64,000 nucleotides of DNA from an uncultured bacterium (GTDB lineage Bacteria; Lernaellota; Lernaellaia; Lernaellales; Lernaellaceae), in NCBI GenBank assembly GCA_964511015.1, contig CAZEDX010000005.1, positions 21,171 to 85,170 on the forward strand, read 5' to 3'. The notes under the pieces are model-generated. The model saw only the letters and a program-made list of their open reading frames with translations, was not told the DNA's origin and searched no databases. A program made the translations under genes and the position numbers. Shown here piece after piece: positions 1-49,772 of this stretch. Position 1 is the stretch's first letter; each line of letters begins with the position of its first letter.

Positions 1-404
1 GTGTAGGCATGGCCATAGCCCTGGCGGATAAGCTCGGCGTTGAGCAGCGTACCATCGGGCAAGAACACATAGGCAAGAAGGCGTCCATATTTGTCTCGGT
101 GATTCGTCGCGGCGCTCGCCTGGTCGAGTTCGAGGCGCACAGTCTTGCCATCTGCCATCTTGTGAGTGAAGGCGCTCGCTTCTTTGCCGAAGTACTGGAC
201 GGGCTTCCTGGGATCGACCGTCTCCGGAGTGTCCACGCCGATGAGCCGAACCTTATCTCTCTGGCCGTCAATCTGAATCGCGAGCGTGTCGCCGTCGACT
301 GCGCGGGTGACTGTTGCGGTGAGAGAGTTGTTCGAATCCTCGGCCAAGCAAACCGAGGAGAAAAATACAAACGCCAGAAGAACAATCACGGAGGCCCGTT
401 TCAT
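1..404 (-). CDS. Secreted thermonuclease (staphylococcal-nuclease/SNase-like). Partial: the 3' end runs off the window start.
   Basis: Reverse-strand translation from the ATG at 404 gives MKRASVIVLLAFVFFSSVCLA (signal peptide), then ...TVTRAVDGDTLAIQIDGQRDKVRLIGVDTPET...DKYGRLLAYVFLPDG. These are SNase motifs (DGDT, RLxGIDTPE, DRYGRxLAYV). A GGAGG RBS sits 6 nt upstream. The gene is absent from the ORF track because no stop lies inside the window. Confidence 0.7.
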   Translation of the reverse strand, partial: MKRASVIVLLAFVFFSSVCLAEDSNNSLTATVTRAVDGDTLAIQIDGQRDKVRLIGVDTPETVDPRKPVQYFGKEASAFTHKMADGKTVRLELDQASAATNHRDKYGRLLAYVFLPDGTLLNAELIRQGYGHAY

Positions 405-562
405 CGAATACCTCCATTTTTCAGGGGCCGATCTTTTACCGACAGTTTGCCGACTACAGGGCGACTCGTCAAAGAGGATCGATTCCTCGGCGATACATAT
501 CCGAGAAAGAACCGATCAGCCGCCGAGGATTTTAGAGGACTCCATGCCGTATTTTCCGGCCC

Positions 563-1522
563 ATGAGAAAGCCCATGTACATCGAAACCCTGGAATACGG
601 ACCGGGGAAAGCCCTGAAAACATCGGACCCAGGGCTGACTCAAATTTTTCAGGAGGTCCGGACTATTTACGCACCCGCTGAATTCCCAGTCGTGATCCAG
701 GGCGAAACCGGCACCGGCAAAGAGGGCGTGGCGAGGGCCATTCATTGGCACAGTCCCCGCCGAGGCAAACCGTTCGTCGCGGTCAACTGCGGCGCGATCC
801 CAGAGGGTCTCGTCGATAGCGAATTCTTTGGGCACGAGCACGGTGCATTCTCGGGGGCTATCTCTCAGCGCAAAGGCCACTTCGAAGCTGCCAACGGCGG
901 CACGATCTTTCTGGACGAGATCGCAGAATTGCCGTTGGGTCTCCAGGCCCGGCTCCTGCGCGTGCTCCAGGAAGGAGAGATTGTCCGAGTGGGAAGCAGC
1001 AAACCAGTGCCCGTGGACATTCGAGTCGTTGCTGCAACGAACAAGGATCTCAAGGCGCTCGTCGACGATGGGAAATATCGCGTCGATCTCTACTACCGGA
1101 TCGCGGCCGCCGTGGTCCACATTCCTCCTCTCCGCGAACGACCGAGCGACATCATGATGTTGGCCAGAGCATTTATTGAAGAATGCTCACCGCCCAAGTG
1201 TCCTGGCCTTCGCATTCAACCGCTTGCCGCTCACTGCCTTCGCTCTCATACCTGGCCGGGCAATGTGCGTGAACTCCAGAGCGCCATAGTCGTCGCGTGC
1301 GCGCGGGCGGTCGCTGATAAACGATCTTCGATCGGTTTGGTTGATCTGGCTACAGAATTATCCGGCGCAAAAACAGTGAACCTGAAAAATAGTACTCTGA
1401 AACAGCGAGTGGCTGAATTCTTTGATAGAAATCCCGGCGGGTCGATCATGGAAGCCGCCCAGCACCTCGGGGTGAATTACCATGTTGCTCGCAGAGCCTT
1501 TCTGCGAACCATACAGCGGTAG
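563..1522 (+). CDS. Sigma-54-dependent transcriptional activator consisting only of the AAA+ sigma-54 interaction domain and a C-terminal Fis-type HTH (PspF-like). It has no receiver or sensory domain.
   Basis: Walker [16 protein letters not shown], a variant of the GAFTGA sigma-54 contact loop. GGTIFLDEI Walker [10 protein letters not shown] motif. C-terminal HTH ...[24 protein letters not shown]. Only ~50 aa precede the AAA+ core. Confidence 0.85.
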
Positions 1523-1532
1523 AGGTCGCGTG

Positions 1533-2429
1533 CTAGTTCGAAGTCGGAGGCTCAGCCTTGCTCGATTCATACTGAAAAGCTTTGAAATCGATTTCCGGCA
1601 AGCCAATCTCCGGCCCCTGACTTTTACGCAGTTCGACCCACGCCAAGCCGTTTTCGGTGGATCGATAGCAATTCCTTAAAGGTCCTGAAAACGCGCACTC
1701 TTTCAAAAATTTTCTCAGCACAAGCTCCATCAGATAATGAGAATTGAAATGGCGTCGATTAGAAAGCCCCACCACTCTCATCATGTCCTTGACGTTGGTT
1801 GGCTCTCGACACAGGTCAATGATCCGCGCGAGGTTGTCCCAGAGGGCCAACTGCGTTGCGCTCGGTGCTGTTCTGGTTTTCGGGTACATCTGGCTCGTGT
1901 CCTCACCCCACGAGGCCAACAGTTTTCTGGCTTCCAGGGCTAGTGGATCACGCTTGCGCACAGCAATTTGCCGAAGCACCTTTCGATCAGATTCGTCACC
2001 ACCGTGTTTTCGCATGTAGTCAAGAAGATTCTGACGGTTGGATTGATCTCCTATTCGGAGAAGACCCTCCCGCATATCAAGATCAACTACTATCTCGATG
2101 GGATCGAGGAGCGCCATCTGCTTTTTCGCCTTCGCCAGTTTTATTCGCTTGGTCGGTGTCCACCAAATTTTCTTGAACCAACATCCTCCTTGTTGATCCC
2201 ACTCATAGTTCCCATACTTCTCGTTCGTTCCATACTCACGACCGAAATCGCGAAAGAGATCTATCGCTGCGCCAAGTCGTTCCAAATCTCTGAGACCGAT
2301 GCAGCGAGTCATGAGCCAAAGATCGGTTAAAGACCCCTCAATGCCCGAATTACGTTCATGCAGTTCGATTGCGTCTTCGGTAACGGTAAGCGACAAAGTG
2401 ATTTTCATTTTCATGCGCATTTTCGACAT
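1533..2429 (-). CDS. Hypothetical protein of 298 aa with no recognisable catalytic motif. It lies between the sigma-54 activator and the exonuclease/GmrSD genes.
   Basis: Long ORF with coding-like composition. Tightly packed with the downstream exonuclease gene (3-nt gap). The C-terminal segment ...MMRVVGLSNRRHFNSHYLMELVLRKFL looks like a winged-helix-type region. Confidence 0.5.
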   Translation of the reverse strand: MSKMRMKMKITLSLTVTEDAIELHERNSGIEGSLTDLWLMTRCIGLRDLERLGAAIDLFRDFGREYGTNEKYGNYEWDQQGGCWFKKIWWTPTKRIKLAKAKKQMALLDPIEIVVDLDMREGLLRIGDQSNRQNLLDYMRKHGGDESDRKVLRQIAVRKRDPLALEARKLLASWGEDTSQMYPKTRTAPSATQLALWDNLARIIDLCREPTNVKDMMRVVGLSNRRHFNSHYLMELVLRKFLKECAFSGPLRNCYRSTENGLAWVELRKSQGPEIGLPEIDFKAFQYESSKAEPPTSN

Positions 2430-2432
2430 AAG

Positions 2433-3230
2433 TTAATCCCTTGTCGGGAATGCGCCATCAAGGGCGTTTTGAACTATCGTCTTCACCTCAAGTGAGAAAT
2501 TCGCTGACAACATCCACTGCAAATATCCCCTATCTTCCACTGCAAGGTGTCGCAGAGACGCATTGGAATTCTTTCCGAAGCTAAGGCATGCCTCTCCGTT
2601 GTCGTTCCAGAGTATCTTGCCATCCGAAGTCACGTTATTTGTATTCACATATCGGGCGACTTCGGCAAGAGTTTTCGGTAGCTCGCCATAACGGTTCAAT
2701 TGAGCAGCGAACACTCTCGCCGTGGCGTCCACATCGCTTGCCGCATCGTGGGCCTTTTCAAAATCCTCGTTGAGGTAAAATTTGACCGCTGCCTTCAAAT
2801 CGCGTTTCTCGAAGTGGAAAAAGATCTCCATGACGTCAACGACTTCCCTATCGGCAAGGGAAAAATTCTTGTCGCACCGTTTGAATTCCTCCATCAGCAA
2901 GGGAATGTCGAATTTCTTAACGTTGAAGCCGCCAAGATGTGCGCCGCCGATTAACTGCAAAATGTCCGATGCAACCATCGAGAAGATTGGCTTGTCTGCT
3001 ACATCAGCGTCGGTGATTCCATGAACGGCTGAGGCGTCAGGCGGGATCGGCTGATCGGGGTTGATTAGCAGATTCAGCCACTCCTCTGGATGGTCCAAGG
3101 ATATCTTTTTCGCCGCAAATTGAACGATCCGATCAGTGGCGAAGTTCGTCCCCGTGGTTTCAAGGTCGAAGATGACAAGTGGTTTGTCCTGCAGAAGATC
3201 GCGTAACGTCATATCTCCCTCAGCACGCAA
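2433..3230 (-). CDS. DEDDh-family 3'-5' exonuclease (DnaQ/epsilon-like) with a C-terminal extension of unknown function.
   Basis: Exo I motif VIFDLETTG. Exo II region HGITDADV. Exo III AHDAASD (H-x4-D). About 90 extra C-terminal residues. Confidence 0.8.
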   Translation of the reverse strand: MRAEGDMTLRDLLQDKPLVIFDLETTGTNFATDRIVQFAAKKISLDHPEEWLNLLINPDQPIPPDASAVHGITDADVADKPIFSMVASDILQLIGGAHLGGFNVKKFDIPLLMEEFKRCDKNFSLADREVVDVMEIFFHFEKRDLKAAVKFYLNEDFEKAHDAASDVDATARVFAAQLNRYGELPKTLAEVARYVNTNNVTSDGKILWNDNGEACLSFGKNSNASLRHLAVEDRGYLQWMLSANFSLEVKTIVQNALDGAFPTRD

Positions 3231-3268
3231 AGCGAGCGGGCCTTCTGGTTGGCCAGCTGGTATGCCGA

Positions 3269-4999
3269 TTAAAATCCATCGGCGCTGAAGCCCAGCGCGC
3301 TCTCCACTTCGGAAATGAGACGCGCTTCTCTGATTTTCAGAAATTCCCGAAACTGCCCATAGTCCAGCATTTCGCGGTCAATGAACGCCCTTTGCAAATC
3401 TTCGTCGTTCACATCGGCAAAAAATTCTTTTGGGTCCTTGGCCGATTTGTTCTGATTCTTGCCTTTGGCGAGCAACCAGAAATTTGCGAAATGATTTAGC
3501 TCGTGTTCCTCGAACTTCATGTCTCTCAGTTTCGACCGTGGGAAAATGTGATCCATTTCTAGCGCGCTTGAAGGCAGGTGGACCTTTGCGCCAGTGAATC
3601 CTTGGACCAGGCAATGGGTCAAATAGACATTGTTCTGCAAGAGACCGGGGCTCACGCGATCACACTGGAACCATGTCTTCGTCATCCATTTGACGAAAGC
3701 GCCAATTGGAAAGGAGAAGTCACCTTTGCTGATTCGCGGATACATCTCCCAAGATACGATTTTCCCAATGCGGCTATCGGCAAAACGTTGGAAGGCGCGG
3801 GTGAATCCGCACAGATAGAGAGCCTGCCGAAAAGGCTTCAAGTCCGCGTTCGGAACCTGGTGCTTGGGTAAATTGTGGAGGTAATAGACGAAAGGAACAA
3901 AGGTGTTGTTTCCGGCAAAGGCTTTGCTGCTGCTGCACCAGCAGTCTCTTTGCACGACGTCGACAAGCGAGCGGATGGCGTTGCAGCATTGGGCGAAGTT
4001 TTTCTTGAATTTCTCGATATTCACCTTATTGCGGAGAAGATCAATGTTGAGCTTCGACCCCAAACCGGAAACGGTGAAAAGGCAGCGGATCACAAAGTCA
4101 GCGTCGAACTGAAATGCATTCCCCTCGTTGATGCTATCCACGAATTCCGGGAGGGTTTCCGCTGACTCCTTCCAATCCAGTTTGAGCATCGAAAAAATCA
4201 GGTCGGATCGACTCAGCGGAGTACCTTGGCGATTGATCCTCACGAAGACTTCGAGCACGTCAGCTTCTGATTTTCGGTCGGGGCTACCAAGTGGTTTGTT
4301 CTCGTCGATGACCGAGGTTTTCAGAATGCTTTCTTCCTTGCTCATCACCTCGTCGATTCGTGCGAGATTCATGTCGAGACGGAGACTATCGTCGTCGGTG
4401 AGTTGGAGCTTCGTGGTCAAATCGCGACTCAATTTCTTTTTTTCCGAAACGGACATTCGAAAAAGGTCTTGAAACCGCATGTACCATTCCATCTGGTCGC
4501 CGTTGTTGTCGTCGGTTTTTCTTTCACTGAATGTCTTAAAGGTTTCCTCGTTGTGCTGGACATCTTCGTCGGGAGTGGAGAAGCGAAAATAGTAGACCAT
4601 CTCCCGGAGATCATTTGACTCTCGACCGGACAGCACGTCGAACGAGAGGTACTTGCCTTCATTGGAGCCGTAAAGCGCAAGGTACAAGGACTGAAGGCGC
4701 TGCTGGCCATCAAGAACCACGTTCAACCGGCGCTTACTGACGTTGTCTTTGAACGTCTGCCGATTGATCTCGCGGACGTCCTTGACGAATTCTCTGTAGC
4801 GAAGGTCGTCGTAGGTCTCCCACATCAGCACGATTCCAAGGGGATAGCCGCGCATGATCGAGTCGAGAAGCATGAAGATTTTGTCTTCGGGCCAGACGAA
4901 ATCGCGCTGGATCGCCGGGAGAACAACGTCCCCGCGATCCATCTGATTAAGCAACGTGCTGATGCTCATTGAGCCTCCTAGCGGCGACCTGAAACGCAA
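3269..4999 (-). CDS. GmrSD-family type IV (modification-dependent) restriction endonuclease-like protein, DUF262 + DUF1524.
   Basis: N-terminal DUF262/ParB-like motifs LPAIQRDFVW and LDGQQRL (DGQQR hallmark). C-terminal His-Me finger-like region ...EMDHIFPRSKLRD...HELNHFANFWLLAKGKNQNKSAKDP (DUF1524). 576 aa. An alternative start at MSISTLL is 4969. Confidence 0.8.
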   Translation of the reverse strand: MRFRSPLGGSMSISTLLNQMDRGDVVLPAIQRDFVWPEDKIFMLLDSIMRGYPLGIVLMWETYDDLRYREFVKDVREINRQTFKDNVSKRRLNVVLDGQQRLQSLYLALYGSNEGKYLSFDVLSGRESNDLREMVYYFRFSTPDEDVQHNEETFKTFSERKTDDNNGDQMEWYMRFQDLFRMSVSEKKKLSRDLTTKLQLTDDDSLRLDMNLARIDEVMSKEESILKTSVIDENKPLGSPDRKSEADVLEVFVRINRQGTPLSRSDLIFSMLKLDWKESAETLPEFVDSINEGNAFQFDADFVIRCLFTVSGLGSKLNIDLLRNKVNIEKFKKNFAQCCNAIRSLVDVVQRDCWCSSSKAFAGNNTFVPFVYYLHNLPKHQVPNADLKPFRQALYLCGFTRAFQRFADSRIGKIVSWEMYPRISKGDFSFPIGAFVKWMTKTWFQCDRVSPGLLQNNVYLTHCLVQGFTGAKVHLPSSALEMDHIFPRSKLRDMKFEEHELNHFANFWLLAKGKNQNKSAKDPKEFFADVNDEDLQRAFIDREMLDYGQFREFLKIREARLISEVESALGFSADGF

Positions 5000-5055
5000 C
5001 TCTGGAGTATTTAGAACCAGGGAAGTTCAGCACCAAAACGTACCTGAGTCAACGC

Positions 5056-5095
5056 AGGACCGCAATCTGATTTCGCGGTCCTCCTGGTTTTTATT
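5056..5095. terminator. Stem-loop AGGACCGC-N-GCGGTCCT followed by a T run on the + strand. Candidate (possibly bidirectional) terminator between comM and the GmrSD gene.
   Basis: Inverted repeat aggaccgcaatctgatttcgcggtcct followed by cctggttttt. Lies in the 196-nt gap between the comM stop and the GmrSD start. Confidence 0.4.
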
Positions 5096-5195
5096 GGCCT
5101 CGACGAACAGCGAAATCGGCTTGTGCGCATGGTGATTCAAATCCCCAAAGCTCGATCTGTAATTTACTGCCACGGATAAACACGCCGATTTGAAC

Positions 5196-6389
5196 TCACA
5201 CATGGCCGATTTCGCTTTCGGGTTGATGGCGCCTACACGGACAACGCGGAAGGAAGCGAGAGTATCCTTTATAAAACGCGACGTTGCGTTCGGATGCTTT
5301 TTGCGTGCGTTCCTGGTGCTGTTGGAGTGTGCGGCAGGGATTCATCGCGGCAATCAGAATAAACCGCGCGGGAAAGGTCGCGGTCATTGACGCCCGGCTG
5401 ATGGTTACTGTGCCGTCTTCCAAAGGTTGGCGCATCATTTCGAGTACGTCACGCCGAAACTCGGGCAGTTCGTCGAGAAACAGCACACCGTGATGCGCTA
5501 GACTGATCTGGCCCGGGCGCGGCACGATACCGCCGCCAACCAGGCCGGCATCGCTCGCCCCATGATGTGGCGCGCAGAACGGGCGCTCCGTGATCAGCCC
5601 GCGGCCGTTCAACTTGCCCGCCACGCTGTAGATCTTGCTGGTGTCGATGATCTCGCGCGTGTTCATCGGCGGCAGCAATGTCGACATGCGGCGCGCAAGC
5701 ATCGTCTTGCCGGAGCCGGGCGGACCGATCAACAGCAAGTTGTGCCCTCCCGCCGCCGCCACTTCCAACGCGCGTTTCGCCTGCTCCTGCCCGCACACAT
5801 CGGCCAGGTCGACGTCTTCCTGATGCGACGATCGGCCGCAGAGAGGTGTCGGCGGCGCGACATCGACCGCCCGCTCGCCCCGCAACCAGGCCACTATTTC
5901 GGTTAGGTGGCTGAACCCGCGCACCTCCACCCCGTCGGCGGTCGCGGCCTCGGCAACGTTATCGTGGGCCACCAATAGCCCTTCTACACTCTGTTGCTTC
6001 ATGTGATCCGCCACCACCATCGCACCGGGTACCGGCTTGATGGAACCATCGAGGCCGAGCTCCCCCAGGACCGCGTGAGAGCGCGTACGCAAGCGCGGAA
6101 TTAGCCCGTAGGCCTGCATCAGCCCGATGGCGATCGGCAGGTCGAGCGCCGCCCCTTCCTTGCGGCGATCGGCCGGAGCCAAGTTGATAACGGTGCGATT
6201 GCGCAGACACGAAAAACCGCTGGCCGAGAGCGCCGACAAAACACGCTCCTGGCTCTCGCGTACTGCCCCGGCCGGCAAGCCGACAATCCGCAGCGAAGGC
6301 AACCCACGTCCGGCGTAGACTTCGACATGCACGGTGAAGGCTTCTACCCCGACCGTCGCTCCGGAAACCACTTGGCCCAAACCGGACAT
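5196..6389 (-). pseudogene. comM: comM/yifB Mg-chelatase-like AAA+ ATPase, 3'-truncated. The ORF ends about 30 aa after the conserved AAMNPC motif, so roughly 140-160 C-terminal residues are missing.
   Basis: Start [24 protein letters not shown]... with an AGGAGG RBS 5 nt upstream of the ATG at 6389. Walker [14 protein letters not shown]. ...[13 protein letters not shown] is then followed by unrelated sequence (RTLQQHQ...[17 protein letters not shown]). Full-length ComM continues long past NPCPCG. Confidence 0.7.
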
Positions 6390-6570
6390 CGCATCCTCCT
6401 GCCCGTTCCCACGAGCAATGGACATGCCAACGGCGGACGAAAAAATGAATTCCCTTATGAATCAAGCAGTTGACCGAAAACGGCGTTGCGAAGCAGGCGA
6501 TGATGTGTTCGGAAATCGAACAGTCGTGTTCGGATTCCGAACAGTCAGAACGAACACCAAGTGTTCTTGC

Positions 6571-7743
6571 TCACTCCCGCAACCATTCCGGAGAGAAGAC
6601 AGCGAAGTCGATGCGCAGATAGGGCAGGAACGGTAACAGACCTCTCTCATACAAGCAGCCTAGCTGCCCGTCGGGCAAGACCGCCAGCGCGGAATACGCC
6701 GAACCGCCCGGGTTCAACACACGTGAAACCGGCCAGGTTTTGCCGTTGTCGGCACTGAGATAGACGGTCAAGTTGCGCCGGAGCAGTTCGCTTTCCGACG
6801 CCAGCCCTGAATACAACAGGCCGTAAGACGTGTTCAGCAGGCTGCCCATGCACGAAGGATCAAGCAATTCGTCGTCATGCGCCACGCCGGTCCAGGTTAG
6901 ACCCCGGTCCTCGCTGCGCCCCACCCAGCGCCGATGCACCGCCGACAGATCACGCGCGTTAATGACGAGACTGCCGTCGTCCAGTTCCGCCACCTGCGAT
7001 TCGTCGGAATCCGGCACCAGACTTCCTCCGATCTGCCAGGTCTCCCCGTCGTCGCTATAGATCACATGCGAGTAAGCTTCGCCGTTGGTCGCGTCGCGGT
7101 GATCGCACGGGACGATGAAACGGCCATCGGCCAACTGGATGCTGCGCCCGGGACCCGTAGCGTACCATGTCCATTCTTCTGGCTTCACCTGGGTGGTGAT
7201 GTCTAGCGGCTCGGACCAACTCGCCCCTTCGTCGCTGCTGCGGGTGATAAGTACCCGCCGGTTGGTCGGGTCGTCGGCGGGGTTGGTGCAAAAGGGCAAC
7301 AGGATGTCGCCGGTTGCGCGGTCGACGACTGGCGCCGGATTGCCGGCGGTGTCGAAACCGTTGTCGACAATGACACGCAAGGCCGACCAGGTGCGCCCGC
7401 CGTCCACACTGCGTTTCATGACCAGATCAATGTCGCCGGTATCGGCAATGCTCGGACGCCCTTCGCAAAAGGCGAGCAATGCGCCAGTGGCGGTTTCGAT
7501 AACGGCAGGAATCCGGTAGACGTCGTATCCTCCCTGCCCGCCGACAAAGACCGGGTACTCGGCGAACTCGATGGCGCCGTCATCGGTGGCGTCATCGTCG
7601 ATATCGTTGTTGGCGTCATCGTCGTCGCCGGGCGCGTTGGTGTTGTCGTCGGCTATGTTGTCGTCATCACCGGAATTTTCACATGAGATTGCCGTCAGAA
7701 CAGCCAGGAGCAATACAAGGCCTGGCAGCAGATTGCTTTTCAT
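6571..7743 (-). CDS. Exo-alpha-sialidase (GH33, BNR/Asp-box repeats) lipoprotein with an N-terminal Asp-rich tether.
   Basis: Lipobox LTAISC. D-rich linker SGDDDNIADDNTNAPGDDDDANNDIDDDATDDG. RIP motif YRIPAV. Five Asp-box SxDxGxTW repeats (SVDGGRTW, SDEGASW, SDDGETW, SEDRGLTW, SADNGKTW). Confidence 0.75.
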   Translation of the reverse strand: MKSNLLPGLVLLLAVLTAISCENSGDDDNIADDNTNAPGDDDDANNDIDDDATDDGAIEFAEYPVFVGGQGGYDVYRIPAVIETATGALLAFCEGRPSIADTGDIDLVMKRSVDGGRTWSALRVIVDNGFDTAGNPAPVVDRATGDILLPFCTNPADDPTNRRVLITRSSDEGASWSEPLDITTQVKPEEWTWYATGPGRSIQLADGRFIVPCDHRDATNGEAYSHVIYSDDGETWQIGGSLVPDSDESQVAELDDGSLVINARDLSAVHRRWVGRSEDRGLTWTGVAHDDELLDPSCMGSLLNTSYGLLYSGLASESELLRRNLTVYLSADNGKTWPVSRVLNPGGSAYSALAVLPDGQLGCLYERGLLPFLPYLRIDFAVFSPEWLRE

Positions 7744-9404: not shown

Positions 9405-10922
9405 TCAGCATCCACACGCGTCGGCATCGTCGGCGGCGGACGCTTGGTTGCTGTCATCATCCACGTCGTCGTCTAGGTCGTCGTCCTGATCGTCGTCGGC
9501 ATCATCGTCGGACAGATCGTCATCGGCGATGTCGTCGTCGGCATGGTCGTCGTCCGCAACGTCGTCATCCGCGCTGTCATCATCGACAATGTCGTGCGGT
9601 TCCAGAAAATCATAGTAGCGCCCCATCCAGTAGGCGATCAGGTAGTCGACTCCGGGCTGCACGTGCTGAGGCAGCCAGCCGTAACATTGCAAATGGTGGG
9701 GTGTGCGTTGCCACAGGTATTCCACGCGACACCGGTCGGTGATTTCCTGCGCTCCCTCGGCCTGGTATGCGAAACCGAGCAAATCGTTGAGACCCAACGA
9801 CTCGGCCAAGTCGGTCAGAAACACCGATACCGGATCGACCGGCAGTTGCGGACAGTTAATGTGAATCTCGCGGTTGGGCGGATCCTGGAAGACGGTGAGC
9901 GAGTGAAGATCGTCTTCCATGATCTCCTTCGCCCCGGCGCACTGACCCATTTTTTCACAGGCGATCAGATAGACGTAGTCGAAATAGACGTTGTGGGTCC
10001 ATTCGACCAGCCGGCGCTGTTTGCTGAACAGATCCCAATAGACCGCCAAACGTTCCGGATCGTCATCCAGCCGGAACAGGTTCAGATCGATCTGGTGCCG
10101 CAGGTTGTTGGCGAAGTACTCGGTATACCGGTTGAAAAAGGCAATGCTCGTCAACGGCAGCGTGGGCGCCAGTTTTTCGAACTGTTCGGCATACAGATCC
10201 CAATACTCTGCCGTGTCCAGAATGTGCGCCGCGATCAGGCAGAAAACGAGGCGTTTCTGGCCGTCGATCATCGGCGCCGCCGTGGTCGGCAAGCCTTCCT
10301 CGTTGAGAATCAGCCAGGCGCTGTTGCGCAGCTTGTCGATGACCTCTTTCACCATCTCGCGAATCAGGGCCCGGGTCGGGGCGTCGTCGATGAAATCGTA
10401 GGCCAGCGCGAGGCCGTGCCACCAACCCACATATTGGTCGGACGAACTGTTGGACAGATAGAAAGTGCCCAGCCACGGGCCGGTGCCGTATTCGAGCAGG
10501 TCGCTGCCGGCGTACTCCAACCAGTAGGCCGGATCGTTGACCGGGCCGACGTAACGCCCGATGTACCCGGTGGTTTGCGTCACTCGCAGGTGATCGCGCA
10601 AGGTCTCCACCGCGGCGATTGCGTTCTGCTTGGCGTCTTCGTCGCCCGTCACCGCGTAGCGGAATGATTCGGCCGCGCAGTAGGTGGCCGTCCACATCGT
10701 GGAATCGCCCTGGCCGCGGTAGTACAGCACCTTCTCCAGGTCCTCCGTTTCGAACATGATCTGGACAATGCCGCCATAGCCCGGCACGTGGTGGTCGCGG
10801 AGCCAGGTTTCGTAGTCGATGGCACGTTGAAGCAGGGCCGGGTCTTCGTCTGCCGAAACGGGCGCCGCAAACGCGATCGCCACCGCGCCCAAAAGGAATA
10901 GGACGAGCGTTCTTTTTCTCAT
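9405..10922 (-). CDS. Secreted alpha-helical protein of unknown function carrying a C-terminal poly-Asp repeat tail that ends ...DDADACGC-COOH.
   Basis: Signal peptide MRKRTLVLFLLGAVAIAFAAPVSA. C-terminal ~60 aa read DDDSADDDVADDDHADDDIADDDLSDDDADDDQDDDLDDDVDDD...ACGC, then stop. Confidence 0.6.
   Translation of the reverse strand: MRKRTLVLFLLGAVAIAFAAPVSADEDPALLQRAIDYETWLRDHHVPGYGGIVQIMFETEDLEKVLYYRGQGDSTMWTATYCAAESFRYAVTGDEDAKQNAIAAVETLRDHLRVTQTTGYIGRYVGPVNDPAYWLEYAGSDLLEYGTGPWLGTFYLSNSSSDQYVGWWHGLALAYDFIDDAPTRALIREMVKEVIDKLRNSAWLILNEEGLPTTAAPMIDGQKRLVFCLIAAHILDTAEYWDLYAEQFEKLAPTLPLTSIAFFNRYTEYFANNLRHQIDLNLFRLDDDPERLAVYWDLFSKQRRLVEWTHNVYFDYVYLIACEKMGQCAGAKEIMEDDLHSLTVFQDPPNREIHINCPQLPVDPVSVFLTDLAESLGLNDLLGFAYQAEGAQEITDRCRVEYLWQRTPHHLQCYGWLPQHVQPGVDYLIAYWMGRYYDFLEPHDIVDDDSADDDVADDDHADDDIADDDLSDDDADDDQDDDLDDDVDDDSNQASAADDADACGC
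9408..9580 (-). repeat. Tandem 12-nt repeats, (GAC)3-NNN type, encoding DDDx.
   Basis: Protein tail DDDxADDDx... read directly. Coding for the C-terminus of the 9405..10922 gene. Confidence 0.7.
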
Positions 10923-45828: not shown

Positions 45829-45844
45829 GCAAGTGGTGTGCCAA
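45829..45844 (-). promoter_or_regulatory. Sigma-54 (-24/-12) promoter for the fliL operon.
   Basis: Minus-strand sequence TGGCACaccacTTGCt, i.e. + strand gcaagtggtgtgcca at 45829-45843. Exact TGGCAC-N5-TTGC spacing, ~140 nt upstream of the fliL ATG. Confidence 0.65.
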
Positions 45845-48482: not shown

Positions 48483-49505
48483 TCAAATGAACTCGCTCCG
48501 AGCGGTATCGAAGACGCGTACGAACCGATCGTGCAGTTCGGCACACGCCTCTTCCGCCAGATGTAAACGCATCCTCCCCGGCTGAGCGGAGAGGTCGACT
48601 TCCTCGGGCTCCAACGCGCCGATTCCCGCCCGCCGGCACAAAGCTTCGCCGAGCGCCACAATCGGCACCACCTTTTCGTCATGTTCCAGGTCGTCCAGGC
48701 GATTCATGTAGTGAACCGTCATCGCCACGCGGTGCGGCATTGCCCACTTCTCGACCGTGAGTTCACCGACATCGACTCCGTACTGTTCGATGATTTCGTC
48801 GACAATCAACGGGGTTGGATGGAAACCAGCCCCCATCTTCCGTTGGGCTTCTTCGACGATTGTAACCGACACCATCTTGCCAATGTTGTGCATCAGGCCG
48901 CACAGAAAGGCTTCTTCCTTGTCGAAGTTTACCGCACCGGCGATGACTCGGGACGCGAAGGCCGTTCCAACCGAACGCTCCCACAACCGTTTGGCCAGTG
49001 GGCCGTACAGCCGGCTTTTAAAGATCTTCGTTTGCAGACTGATCGCCAACATGACGTTCTTAATCTCGGTCTGCCCCAACCTGACCAACGCCTGGTTGAT
49101 ATTGGTGATCTCGACGGCCGCCGCATAGACCGGGCTGTTGCAAAGCCGAATGATGCGGCTGGCGATGGTCTGGTCGGTCATGATGACTTTCGCCAGATCC
49201 TGCATGCTGCTGCCCGCATCACTGGTTAGCCGGATCACTTTAAGCGCTACGTGCGGCAGCATCGGCAGTTCGAAGTCCCGTTCGAGGATGCTTTGCACGA
49301 TCTTCTCGCGGAAGTTTTCTTCTTCCGGAGTCATTGTCCGCTCTTCTGTCGGGGGTAGAGGAGGAGCGGCAGCGGATTTTGGCGGTGGTGGCGGTGGTGT
49401 CGGCGGCGGGGCCGGCGGATTCGCGGGTTTGGGCGCTGTTACCACAAAAACCTGCTTACAATGCGGGCAGCGGACCTTGAACCGCAACGCCTCATCTTGG
49501 GCCAT
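48483..49505 (-). CDS. HDOD-domain signalling protein with an N-terminal zinc ribbon and polyproline linker.
   Basis: CPHCKQ zinc ribbon; PPAPPPTPPPPPPK linker; HDOD core ...LPMLPHVALKVIRLTSD...ASRIIRLCNSPVY...LMHNIGKM. Confidence 0.75.
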   Translation of the reverse strand: MAQDEALRFKVRCPHCKQVFVVTAPKPANPPAPPPTPPPPPPKSAAAPPLPPTEERTMTPEEENFREKIVQSILERDFELPMLPHVALKVIRLTSDAGSSMQDLAKVIMTDQTIASRIIRLCNSPVYAAAVEITNINQALVRLGQTEIKNVMLAISLQTKIFKSRLYGPLAKRLWERSVGTAFASRVIAGAVNFDKEEAFLCGLMHNIGKMVSVTIVEEAQRKMGAGFHPTPLIVDEIIEQYGVDVGELTVEKWAMPHRVAMTVHYMNRLDDLEHDEKVVPIVALGEALCRRAGIGALEPEEVDLSAQPGRMRLHLAEEACAELHDRFVRVFDTARSEFI

Positions 49506-49772
49506 TGGTCGATCCTTCCCCCGCACGCCGTTAGGCAAAGCCGAATAACCCGGATACTAGCCATCCGACGCACGGATCAAGCAAACGATGTGCCACCGTT
49601 CGAGCAAGCGAACGAAGCCTTTGATTTAACAAGGCTTGCTTGCATTGTACGACCTCGCGCCGGAATGAAGCAACGGGACAGAATTGCTTTGGTGTCAAAA
49701 AATCGACGGAACGATTCTGCCGTTCTTGCGGCGTAGCCGAAACCTCTGTTAGGTTGGCAAGAACTACTTGGA

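What the first reader, a model, noticed from the sequence alone, without database searches (positions are those of the whole stretch)
1533..4999. Three-gene minus-strand module: unknown 298-aa protein, DEDDh exonuclease and GmrSD-like (DUF262/DUF1524) nuclease
GmrSD-family enzymes normally act alone as type IV restriction enzymes. Here the gene is collinear and tightly spaced (3-nt and 38-nt gaps) with a DnaQ-like 3'-5' exonuclease bearing an unusual ~90-aa C-terminal extension and with a 298-aa protein lacking known motifs. A restriction endonuclease coupled to a processive exonuclease and an accessory (sensor or regulator?) protein could constitute a multi-component anti-phage system that degrades nicked foreign DNA. 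The module sits in the comM-associated islet, which is typical defense-island real estate. The secreted thermonuclease and PspF-like sigma-54 activator upstream may belong to the same element.
Basis: inference. Interest (0 to 1): 0.6.

Follow-up and report, generated by a model that had tools for sequence, protein, structure and literature searches.

The report
BrxU-like restriction gene in defence islet
The three genes are real and probably co-transcribed, but they look like a patchwork of separately mobile genes rather than a dedicated three-part anti-phage machine: a stand-alone BrxU-type restriction enzyme, a common phage-type exonuclease and a rare DNA-binding protein, all beside a broken comM gene.

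Summary
Three co-oriented minus-strand genes (1533-2429, 2433-3212/3230, 3269-4969/4999) form a low-GC islet (0.50 against 0.58 for the window) next to a truncated comM.

- **GmrSD-like gene.** It matches BrxU (PDB 7P9K; PADLOC HEC-05) along its full length and has intact DGQQR and DHIFP motifs. BrxU works alone.
- **Exonuclease.** It has an intact DEDDh pentad. Its "unusual" C-terminal extension is the known ExoX-like_C domain, shared by thousands of homologues, and at least 334 relatives were confirmed in viral contigs.
- **298-aa protein.** It is rare (about ten relatives among 1.8 billion representative proteins). It ends in a PadR/MarR-like winged helix, and its core recurs beside other nuclease genes in defence islands.

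The three-gene order recurs only in one close relative (exonuclease 86% identical). Elsewhere each gene occurs without the others:
- GmrSD at 68% identity sits inside a type I R-M operon.
- GmrSD at 67% identity has no exonuclease next to it.
- The exonuclease at 65% identity sits in the same comM/sigma-54/SNase locus, with a viperin-like gene in place of GmrSD.
- No co-occurrence was found in 80 genomic GmrSD loci, 82 viral exonuclease loci or 10 viral GmrSD loci.

A dedicated three-component system is therefore unlikely. A looser link between the winged-helix protein and nucleases remains open.

The parts
3269..4969 (-). GmrSD-family (BrxU-like) type IV restriction enzyme, 566 aa from the ATG at 4969. 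The ORF is open to a TTG at 4999.
   Evidence: PF03235 scores 4.6e-28 and PF07510 scores 0.0034. PADLOC HEC-05 scores 2.7e-68 over the full length. BrxU (PDB 7P9K) aligns over residues 12-569 with E=1e-24. Motifs QR, MLLDS@43, DGQQR@97 and DHIFP@483 are present. The RBS AGGAGG lies before the ATG.
2433..3212 (-). DEDDh 3'-5' exonuclease with an ExoX-like C-terminal domain, 259 aa from the ATG at 3212. The ORF is open to a TTG at 3230.
   Evidence: PF00929 scores 7.3e-23. phrog_192 scores 1.5e-45 and covers residues 15-249. D22, E24, D108, H161 and D166 are invariant across 46 homologues. PF20600 matches 35 of 46 homologues and scores 0.0023 on the isolated C-terminus. Homologues occur in Flavobacterium and Croceibacter phages and in at least 334 viral contigs.
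1533..2429 (-). p298, a rare 298-aa protein. It has a poorly modelled N-terminal part (1-118), a helical middle (about 119-190) and a C-terminal PadR/MarR-like winged helix (about 195-275).
4970..5350 (-). Non-coding leader and junction between the comM break and the GmrSD start. This is the presumed promoter region of the cluster.
   Evidence: Sequence read directly. It holds one imperfect 17-nt inverted repeat at 5063-5123. No sigma-70-like or sigma-54-like consensus match was found.
5196..6425 (-). Truncated comM (YifB-type Mg-chelatase-like AAA ATPase). Homology ends after ...AAMNPC near position 5350, and the frame then runs on through unrelated codons.
   Evidence: TIGR00368 model positions 2-370 of 499 are matched. 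Mg_chelatase matches positions 1-181 of 207. No 3' remainder was found in the window.
563..1522 (+). Sensor-less (PspF-like) sigma-54 activator, convergent with p298. It is a conserved neighbour of the locus, not shown to be part of the module.
   Evidence: Sigma54_activat scores 7.8e-65. It is 60% identical to the L001 counterpart in the same relative position. Its GC is 0.573, like the host.
1..404 (-). Secreted SNase (thermonuclease) gene, 5' part only because it runs off the window. It is divergent from the sigma-54 activator.
   Evidence: Translation shows a signal peptide and an SNase-like sequence. It is 47% identical to the L001 SNase (PF00565) in the same arrangement.

Best explanation
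The region is a small, compositionally foreign defence islet in a variable slot beside a broken comM gene. It is built from genes that move and function independently.

1. The 566-aa protein is a BrxU-clade GmrSD enzyme. By analogy with BrxU, its N-terminal DUF262 NTPase/sensor domain controls a C-terminal HNH (DUF1524) nuclease that cuts phage DNA carrying modified cytosines. It does this as a single polypeptide (inferred from homology, not shown here).
2. The DEDDh exonuclease with an ExoX-like_C domain belongs to a very large family that is common in phages and bacteria. It is the conserved resident of this locus. In a related genome the same comM' / exonuclease / sigma-54 activator / SNase frame holds different cargo on both sides of the exonuclease.
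3. The 298-aa protein is a fast-diverging winged-helix DNA-binding protein. Its core travels with various nuclease genes in defence islands. Its most likely role is a DNA-binding regulator or accessory of neighbouring nuclease genes (inferred).

The three genes are probably co-transcribed here, but that is a local arrangement, not a conserved three-component system.
For: - **GmrSD identity.** Full-length collinearity with BrxU and HEC-05, with intact catalytic motifs. BrxU and HEC-05 act alone (PMC8565348; 10.1101/2024.01.29.577857).
- **GmrSD mobility.** The nearest GmrSD relatives sit in unrelated contexts: between hsdS and hsdR (L105) and next to a secreted hydrolase (L015).
- **No wider association.** 0 of 80 genomic GmrSD loci have an exonuclease or a p298-like gene. 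0 of 82 viral exonuclease loci have a GmrSD-like or p298-like gene.
- **Mosaic locus.** L001 keeps the comM 5' fragment, the exonuclease (65%), the sigma-54 activator (60%) and SNase (47%) in the same order and orientation. A pVip-like radical-SAM gene and a split methyltransferase replace GmrSD, and about 5 kb of other genes replace p298. DNA similarity to L001 is confined to the exonuclease ORF itself, 3200-2434.
- **Unequal divergence.** Against L008, the exonuclease is 86% identical but p298 only 48%.
- **p298 relatives.** They lie next to a Cas4-like/DUF2779 nuclease between BREX type 2 and PDC-M27, a PDDEXK_4 nuclease, a BrxU-like GmrSD without any exonuclease (L022), and a PDC-S11-like PD-(D/E)XK protein.
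Against: - The tight spacing (3 nt between the exonuclease and p298), the shared low GC and the absence of an internal terminator would also fit a functional operon.
- The same three-gene order is kept in L008-L010.
- A p298-like gene sits directly beside a GmrSD-like gene in L022. Another sits 6 nt after a protein with a predicted 3'-5' exonuclease-clade domain (DUF2779; PMC3985635). A functional link between p298 and nucleases is therefore not excluded.
- Only about six independent p298-family contexts could be retrieved.
- No experiment bears on any of the three proteins.
Confidence: 0.6

Rival explanations
1. Two-component reading. p298 is a dedicated DNA-binding partner (regulator, adaptor or immunity factor) of nuclease effectors. 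It works here with GmrSD and/or the exonuclease, while GmrSD and the exonuclease have no mutual dependence.
For: The p298-family core lies immediately beside a nuclease gene on the same strand in four independent contexts:
- exonuclease then p298, 3 nt gap;
- Cas4-like/DUF2779 then P0123, 6 nt gap;
- PDDEXK_4 then P0124, about 60 nt gap;
- P0125 then a BrxU-like GmrSD, about 60 nt gap.

DUF2779 is placed in the 3'-5' exonuclease clade of the RNase H-like superfamily (PMC3985635). Defence-island regulators and DNA-binding partners of nucleases have precedents: RptR (PMC12255303), BrxR (PMC8565348) and KELShedu (abstract).
Against: - None of the 80 genomic BrxU-like loci or the 82 viral exonuclease loci has a p298-like gene, so neither nuclease family needs it.
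- The partner nucleases are unrelated to each other.
- Nuclease genes are common in defence islands anyway, so adjacency in six contexts is weak statistics.
- In L008-L010 the homologue stops before the winged helix.
Confidence: 0.22
2. This is an integrated three-component anti-phage system in which GmrSD nicks or cuts foreign DNA, the DEDDh exonuclease degrades it from the 3' ends, and p298 senses or regulates.
For: The layout is operon-like with shared low GC. The order is conserved in L008-L010. A loosely analogous composition (a Cas4-like endonuclease fused to an exonuclease-clade domain, plus a p298-like gene) exists in L003-L007.
Against: - The only conserved instance is a close relative (83% nucleotide identity over the GmrSD end and the exonuclease), so it reflects shared descent.
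- Relatives at 65-68% identity have lost or never had the partners.
- The counts are 0 of 80, 0 of 82 and 0 of 10 in wider samples.
- BrxU-type enzymes defend alone.
Confidence: 0.08
3. The exonuclease and p298 are leftovers of a phage or other mobile-element replication/regulation module, with no defence role. GmrSD simply landed next to them.
For: The exonuclease matches phrog_192, 'DNA polymerase exonuclease subunit'. It matches phage genes annotated as Pol III epsilon and at least 334 viral-contig relatives.
Against: - No integrase, capsid or other phage genes lie in the visible part of the locus or in L001.
- p298 has no relative in the phage, plasmid or viral collections.
- p298 relatives sit in defence islands, not prophages.
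Confidence: 0.1

Closest known systems
BrxU (Escherichia fergusonii pEFER; PDB 7P9K/7P9M), equal to PADLOC HEC-05
   Same: Same two-domain architecture over the whole length (residues 12-569 against 7-578, E=1e-24). The HEC-05 model scores 2.7e-68. The DGQQR, DHI[Y/F]P and RLFDS-like (MLLDS) motifs are present. Like BrxU and other GmrSD homologues, its close relatives are found embedded in other defence operons (L105 in a type I R-M operon; PMC11411939).
   Different: The pairwise phmmer E-value is modest (1e-24). The Pfam DUF1524 hit is below its cut-off (17.7 against 23 bits). Substrate preference is unknown. Here the gene lies beside a comM break rather than inside BREX.
TgvAB (Vibrio cholerae VPI-2), a two-protein GmrSD-like type IV system
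   Same: It is a GmrSD-family nuclease that needs a second gene product, which is the known precedent for multi-gene GmrSD systems (PMC11411939).
   Different: TgvA is itself a DUF262 protein. Neither the exonuclease nor p298 has a DUF262 domain, so this locus is not of the TgvAB type.
ExoX-type and phage DnaQ-like DEDDh exonucleases (PF00929 + PF20600; phrog_192)
   Same: It has the DEDDh pentad and the C-terminal FGK...YLxW domain. It matches phrog_192 and phage 'Pol III epsilon' genes along its full length.
   Different: The PF20600 score of the window protein itself is weak (0.0023 on the isolated C-terminus). The biological role of this roughly 260-aa family is not established.
Defence-island transcriptional regulators (BrxR/WYL, RptR) and the Fic-like_C / PadR-MarR winged helices
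   Different: There is no WYL or other known sensor domain. The N-terminal 190 residues have no detectable relatives outside the small family. No operator or DNA binding has been shown. The gene lies at the 3' end of the cluster, not upstream.

Membership tests
GmrSD family type IV restriction enzymes (BrxU clade) | N-terminal DUF262 (GmrS) domain with QR and DGQQR nucleotide-hydrolysis motifs | tested here: met
   PF03235 scores 4.6e-28. AIQRDFVW is at residue 29 and DGQQR at residue 97. Both align to the BrxU motifs.
GmrSD family type IV restriction enzymes (BrxU clade) | C-terminal DUF1524 His-Me/HNH nuclease with the DHIxP motif and downstream Asn residues | tested here: met
   DHIFP is at residue 483, followed by NHFANF at 502 and NQNKS at 515, aligned to BrxU DHIYP. 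The Pfam PF07510 hit is only 17.7 bits, below the 23-bit cut-off. Support therefore rests on the motifs and the full-length alignment.
GmrSD family type IV restriction enzymes (BrxU clade) | Cleavage depends on modified (hmC / glucosyl-hmC-type) DNA | not testable with these tools
   This needs plaque assays or in vitro cleavage of modified against unmodified DNA.
GmrSD family type IV restriction enzymes (BrxU clade) | Functions as a single polypeptide without dedicated partner genes | tested here: inconclusive
   Relatives at 28-68% identity have no conserved partner: 0 of 80 genomic loci, and L015 and L105 sit in unrelated contexts. This is comparative evidence, not functional evidence.
DEDDh (DnaQ-like) 3'-5' exonucleases with ExoX-like C-terminal domain | Catalytic D-E-D-D-H pentad in three Exo motifs | tested here: met
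   D22, E24, D108, H161 and D166 are invariant in an alignment of 46 family members and present in the window protein.
DEDDh (DnaQ-like) 3'-5' exonucleases with ExoX-like C-terminal domain | C-terminal PF20600 (ExoX-like_C) domain | tested here: met
   35 of 46 homologues match PF20600, best E-value 6.2e-12. F218, G219 and W239 are invariant. The window C-terminus alone scores 0.0023, below the cut-off.
Dedicated multi-gene defence system (GmrSD + exonuclease + p298) | Gene neighbourhood conserved across independent, divergent genomes | tested here: not met
   The trio is seen only in the close relatives L008-L010. It is absent around the relatives at 65-68% identity, in 80 genomic GmrSD loci, in 82 viral exonuclease loci and in 10 viral GmrSD loci.
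TgvAB-type two-protein GmrSD systems | A second DUF262-only protein encoded next to the DUF262-DUF1524 protein | tested here: not met
   Neither p298 nor the exonuclease has a DUF262 hit. The definition is taken from PMC11411939.
Winged-helix (PadR/MarR/Fic-like_C) DNA-binding proteins, for p298 | wHTH fold in the C-terminal domain | tested here: met
Winged-helix (PadR/MarR/Fic-like_C) DNA-binding proteins, for p298 | Sequence-specific DNA binding or transcriptional regulation | not testable with these tools
   Only one imperfect inverted repeat was found in the leader. EMSA or a reporter assay is needed.
Genomic island integrated in comM | comM interrupted, with foreign-composition DNA at the break | tested here: met
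   comM matches only positions 2-370 of 499. GC drops from 0.645 to about 0.50 at the break.
Genomic island integrated in comM | Integrase or recombinase, flanking att repeats, and the comM 3' remainder at the far end | tested here: inconclusive
   None of these lies in the visible part. The locus runs off the left edge of the window. L001 breaks comM at a different codon (about aa 60).

The most novel reading that the evidence does not exclude
The p298 family (a helical region with an RDPL...WGED motif plus a winged helix, with variable N-termini) may be a previously undescribed, modular DNA-binding partner. It would pair with unrelated nuclease effectors to form small two-gene defence modules, so the window would hold such a module. 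The effectors seen are a DEDDh exonuclease, a Cas4-like/DUF2779 protein, a PDDEXK_4 protein and a BrxU-like GmrSD.
Probability: 0.2. Interest if true: 0.55.

Novelty: new member of a known kind. Interest (0 to 1): 0.3.

Why it matters
The main component is another BrxU-type type IV restriction enzyme, so the locus adds little to what is known about GmrSD enzymes.

The useful points are mostly negative or contextual:
- A tight, operon-like trio in a defence islet is not enough to claim a multi-component system.
- The comM' / exonuclease / sigma-54 / SNase frame behaves as a hotspot that swaps defence cargo (BrxU-like here, viperin-like in a relative).
- A rare winged-helix family keeps turning up beside nucleases in defence islands. 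It is a cheap candidate to test as a regulator or adaptor.

Tried and rejected
- **Exact-sequence look-ups.** The window proteins and their database copies returned no contig, so the remaining about 27 kb of the 90.9-kb source contig could not be read.
- **Single-protein metagenome scan.** The scan with GmrSD found nothing.
- **p298 alignment scans.** The p298 alignment A1 was too divergent for pattern scans. The trimmed alignment A2 found nothing in representative genomes, only one new metagenome locus and nothing in viral contigs.
- **p298 in phages and plasmids.** There were no hits in annotated phages or plasmids.
- **Sigma-54 control.** The idea that the sigma-54 activator drives the trio was rejected. 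No -24/-12 match lies in 4970-5350 or in 404-563, and window-wide matches are at the chance level.
- **Structured RNA.** No Rfam match in 1-7000 and no tRNA in the window.
- **comM 3' remainder.** It was sought by motif and not found in the window.
- **Shared partner nuclease.** The idea that the nucleases next to p298 relatives are one family was rejected. They show no mutual similarity.


Full report
**Observation.** The three minus-strand ORFs are present exactly as described: 1533-2429 (298 aa), 2433-3230 (265 aa) and 3269-4999 (576 aa). Reading the junctions shows better starts than the longest ORFs. One is an ATG at 4969 preceded by AGGAGG for the GmrSD-like gene. The other is an ATG at 3212 preceded by GAGGGAG for the exonuclease. 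The database versions of these proteins (P0132, 566 aa; P0002, 259 aa) use the same starts. The gaps are therefore 56 nt (38 nt with the TTG start) and 3 nt. No terminator-like site lies on the minus strand within the cluster. The cluster has the lowest GC of the 64-kb window, at 0.50 against 0.58 +/- 0.024. The flanking SNase and sigma-54 activator genes have 0.575, and comM has 0.645. comM (5196-6425) matches only positions 2-370 of the 499-position YifB/ComM model and loses homology after ...AAMNPC near 5350. Its 3' remainder is not in the window. The SNase gene (minus strand, from 404, running off the window) and a sensor-less sigma-54 activator (563-1522) form a divergent pair to the left.

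**The GmrSD-like protein.**
- It has a strong DUF262 hit (4.6e-28) and a weak DUF1524 hit (0.0034, below the cut-off).
- It matches the PADLOC HEC-05 model along its full length at 2.7e-68.
- It aligns over residues 12-569 to BrxU (PDB 7P9K), E=1e-24.
- The BrxU motifs are present in the aligned positions: RLFDS (here MLLDS), DGQQR and DHIYP (here DHIFP), plus downstream Asn residues.
- HEC-05 is BrxU, and both act as single-gene defences (10.1101/2024.01.29.577857; PMC8565348; PMC11411939).
- The family is large and widely transferred. There are 2,517 hits at E<=1e-20, at about 52-57% identity across bacterial and archaeal phyla.

**The exonuclease.**
- It is RNase_T/DEDDh at 7.3e-23.
- In an alignment of 46 family members, D22, E24, D108, H161 and D166 are invariant and present here.
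- The C-terminal roughly 90 residues are not an oddity. Thousands of homologues of about 255-265 aa share them (2,782 at E<=1e-10).
- F218, G219 and W239 are invariant, and 35 of 46 members match Pfam ExoX-like_C (PF20600). The isolated window C-terminus scores 0.0023.
- The whole protein, including this domain, matches phrog_192 (1.5e-45, residues 15-249). It also matches genes annotated as Pol III epsilon in Flavobacterium and Croceibacter phages and at least 334 relatives in IMG/VR contigs.

**The 298-aa protein (p298).**
- It has no hit in Pfam, NCBIfam, PHROGs or PADLOC, and finds only itself in the 5.8-billion-protein word-indexed search.
- A full phmmer pass over 1.84 billion representatives gave ten relatives, which reveal a modular build:
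  - an N-terminal part shared with P0122 and P0126;
  - a helical middle (AVRxRDPL...WGED);
  - a C-terminal domain shared with P0123, P0124 and P0125.
- The C-terminal domain also hits proteins with strong Fic-like_C winged helices (P0127, P0131).
- The family profile hits the C-terminal wHTH of Fic protein 4RGL at E=1.4e-4.
- p298 is thus a real, conserved coding gene for a DNA-binding-type protein with an uncharacterised N-terminal half.

**Is the trio a conserved module?** One lineage keeps it. Three short metagenome contigs (L008-L010) carry the GmrSD C-terminus (72% identical over the last 29 aa), the exonuclease (86%) and a p298 homologue (48%) in the same order. These contigs are 83% identical in DNA to the window across the GmrSD end and the exonuclease, so this is shared descent, not independent assembly. 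The p298 homologue there also stops before the winged helix, and all three contigs end 65-70 nt later. Beyond that lineage the genes separate.
- The 68%-identical GmrSD (L105) lies between a type I specificity subunit and HsdR.
- The 67%-identical GmrSD (L015/L016) is followed by an unrelated ORF and preceded by a secreted hydrolase.
- In 80 GmrSD loci from representative genomes (28-57% identity, +/-6 kb), tblastn and family HMMs find no exonuclease of this family and no p298-like gene.
- In 82 viral exonuclease loci there is no GmrSD-like or p298-like gene, and in 10 viral GmrSD-like loci there is no exonuclease.

**The locus is a mosaic.** Contig L001 has the exonuclease (65%), the sigma-54 activator (60%) and SNase (47%). 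It also has a comM 5' fragment (about aa 1-60). All are in the same order and orientation as in the window.
- Between comM' and the exonuclease, L001 has a pVip-like radical-SAM gene (PADLOC 2e-19) and a split methyltransferase, both at GC 0.31-0.36, where the window has GmrSD.
- Between the exonuclease and the sigma-54 activator, L001 has about 5 kb of other genes where the window has p298.
- DNA similarity between the window and L001 covers just the exonuclease ORF (3200-2434) and the activator.

The exonuclease therefore behaves as a resident of the locus, flanked by two slots with exchangeable, defence-flavoured cargo. It does not behave as a partner specific to GmrSD.

**What p298 relatives sit next to.**
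- P0123 lies 6 nt downstream of a Cas4-like/DUF2779 protein, between PglX/PglW (BREX type 2) and a PDC-M27 candidate system. DUF2779 has been placed in the 3'-5' exonuclease clade of the RNase H-like superfamily, fused to a Cas4-like domain (PMC3985635; PMC13621843).
- P0124 follows a PDDEXK_4 nuclease.
- P0125, which has only the middle and wHTH parts, lies about 60 nt upstream of a BrxU-like GmrSD (45% identical to the window protein) with no exonuclease.
- L017 has a convergent PDC-S11-like PD-(D/E)XK protein.
- P0126, which has only the N-terminal domain, stands alone near a WYL regulator.

The partner nucleases are mutually unrelated. This recurring adjacency is the one feature that keeps a functional link between p298 and nucleases alive. 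It rests on about six contexts in gene neighbourhoods where nucleases are common anyway.

**Mechanism, as far as supported.**
- *GmrSD.* By homology to BrxU, it is a nucleotide-regulated, modification-dependent HNH endonuclease that acts alone. This is inferred; the motifs are shown.
- *Exonuclease.* It is an active-site-intact 3'-5' exonuclease of a phage-rich family. Its role here is unknown, and it could trim DNA ends produced by any nuclease. No comparative evidence ties it to GmrSD.
- *p298.* It is most likely a DNA-binding regulator or accessory protein associated with nuclease genes (inferred from fold and neighbourhoods). Regulators of defence islands such as BrxR and RptR, and DNA-binding partners of nucleases such as KELShedu, are precedents.
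- *Sigma-54 activator and SNase.* There is no evidence that they belong to the module. Their GC is host-like, they are conserved in L001 independently of the cargo, and no sigma-54 promoter lies near the cluster.

**Verdict.** The three-component interpretation is at best weakly supported. The locus is best filed as a new member of known kinds: a BrxU-type type IV enzyme in a defence hotspot, with a common exonuclease and an uncharacterised winged-helix protein as neighbours. Interest is modest. The most novel reading still open is that the p298 family is a modular DNA-binding partner of diverse nuclease effectors.

Noticed in passing
window 1-6425; L001 1300-13057: The frame comM 5' fragment / exonuclease / sigma-54 activator (opposite strand) / SNase is collinear between the window and metagenome contig L001. 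The cargo on both sides of the exonuclease differs: BrxU-like GmrSD and p298 here, against a pVip-like radical-SAM gene, a split methyltransferase and about 5 kb of other genes in L001. comM breaks at different codons, about aa 357 here and about aa 60 in L001.
   Followed up: partly
L003-L007 and L018 (for example L003 8444-10717): A Cas4-like/DUF2779 protein and the p298-like P0123 form a tight pair (6-nt gap). The pair is wedged between BREX type 2 genes (PglX, PglW) and a PADLOC PDC-M27 candidate system. It looks like an uncharacterised 'embedded' two-gene module.
   Followed up: partly
L022 729-2687: A short p298-family protein (P0125, 131 aa, middle and winged-helix parts only) lies about 60 nt upstream of a BrxU-like GmrSD gene. 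That gene is 45% identical to the window protein, and no exonuclease lies between them.
   Followed up: partly
L008 1598-1668, L009 1289-1354, L010 1060-1125: In the closest relatives the p298 homologue ends in two stop codons just before the winged-helix domain. Three contigs from different samples all end 65-70 nt later. This suggests an assembly break at a repeat or an insertion that truncated the gene.
   Followed up: no
window 563-1522 (+) and 1-404 (-): The sigma-54 activator lacks any N-terminal sensor domain. Its best PADLOC match is RtcR_PspF2, at model positions 176-430 of 481. It is divergently paired with a signal-peptide SNase, and the pair is conserved in L001. No -24/-12 promoter was found in the 160-bp space between them.
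   Followed up: partly
window 49581-49595 (-) and 45829-45843 (-): These are two exact matches to the sigma-54 consensus TGGCAC-N5-TTGC. The first lies about 45 nt upstream of the start of the minus-strand ORF 48483-49538. Overall match counts in the window are at the chance level.
   Followed up: no
window 6571-7743 (-), 9405-10922 (-); L015 820-2943 (-): These secreted or lipoprotein-like proteins carry long Asp/Asn-rich low-complexity stretches: N-terminal in the 390-aa window protein and the L015 707-aa protein, C-terminal in the 505-aa window protein. The shared style suggests that L015 comes from a related organism.
   Followed up: no
L001 13088-15691 (-): A Ski2/Hel308-like DEAD-box helicase with a C-terminal Trans_reg_C winged helix lies next to the SNase gene. 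Its best PADLOC matches are PDC-M23B and HamB (Hachiman helicase).
   Followed up: no
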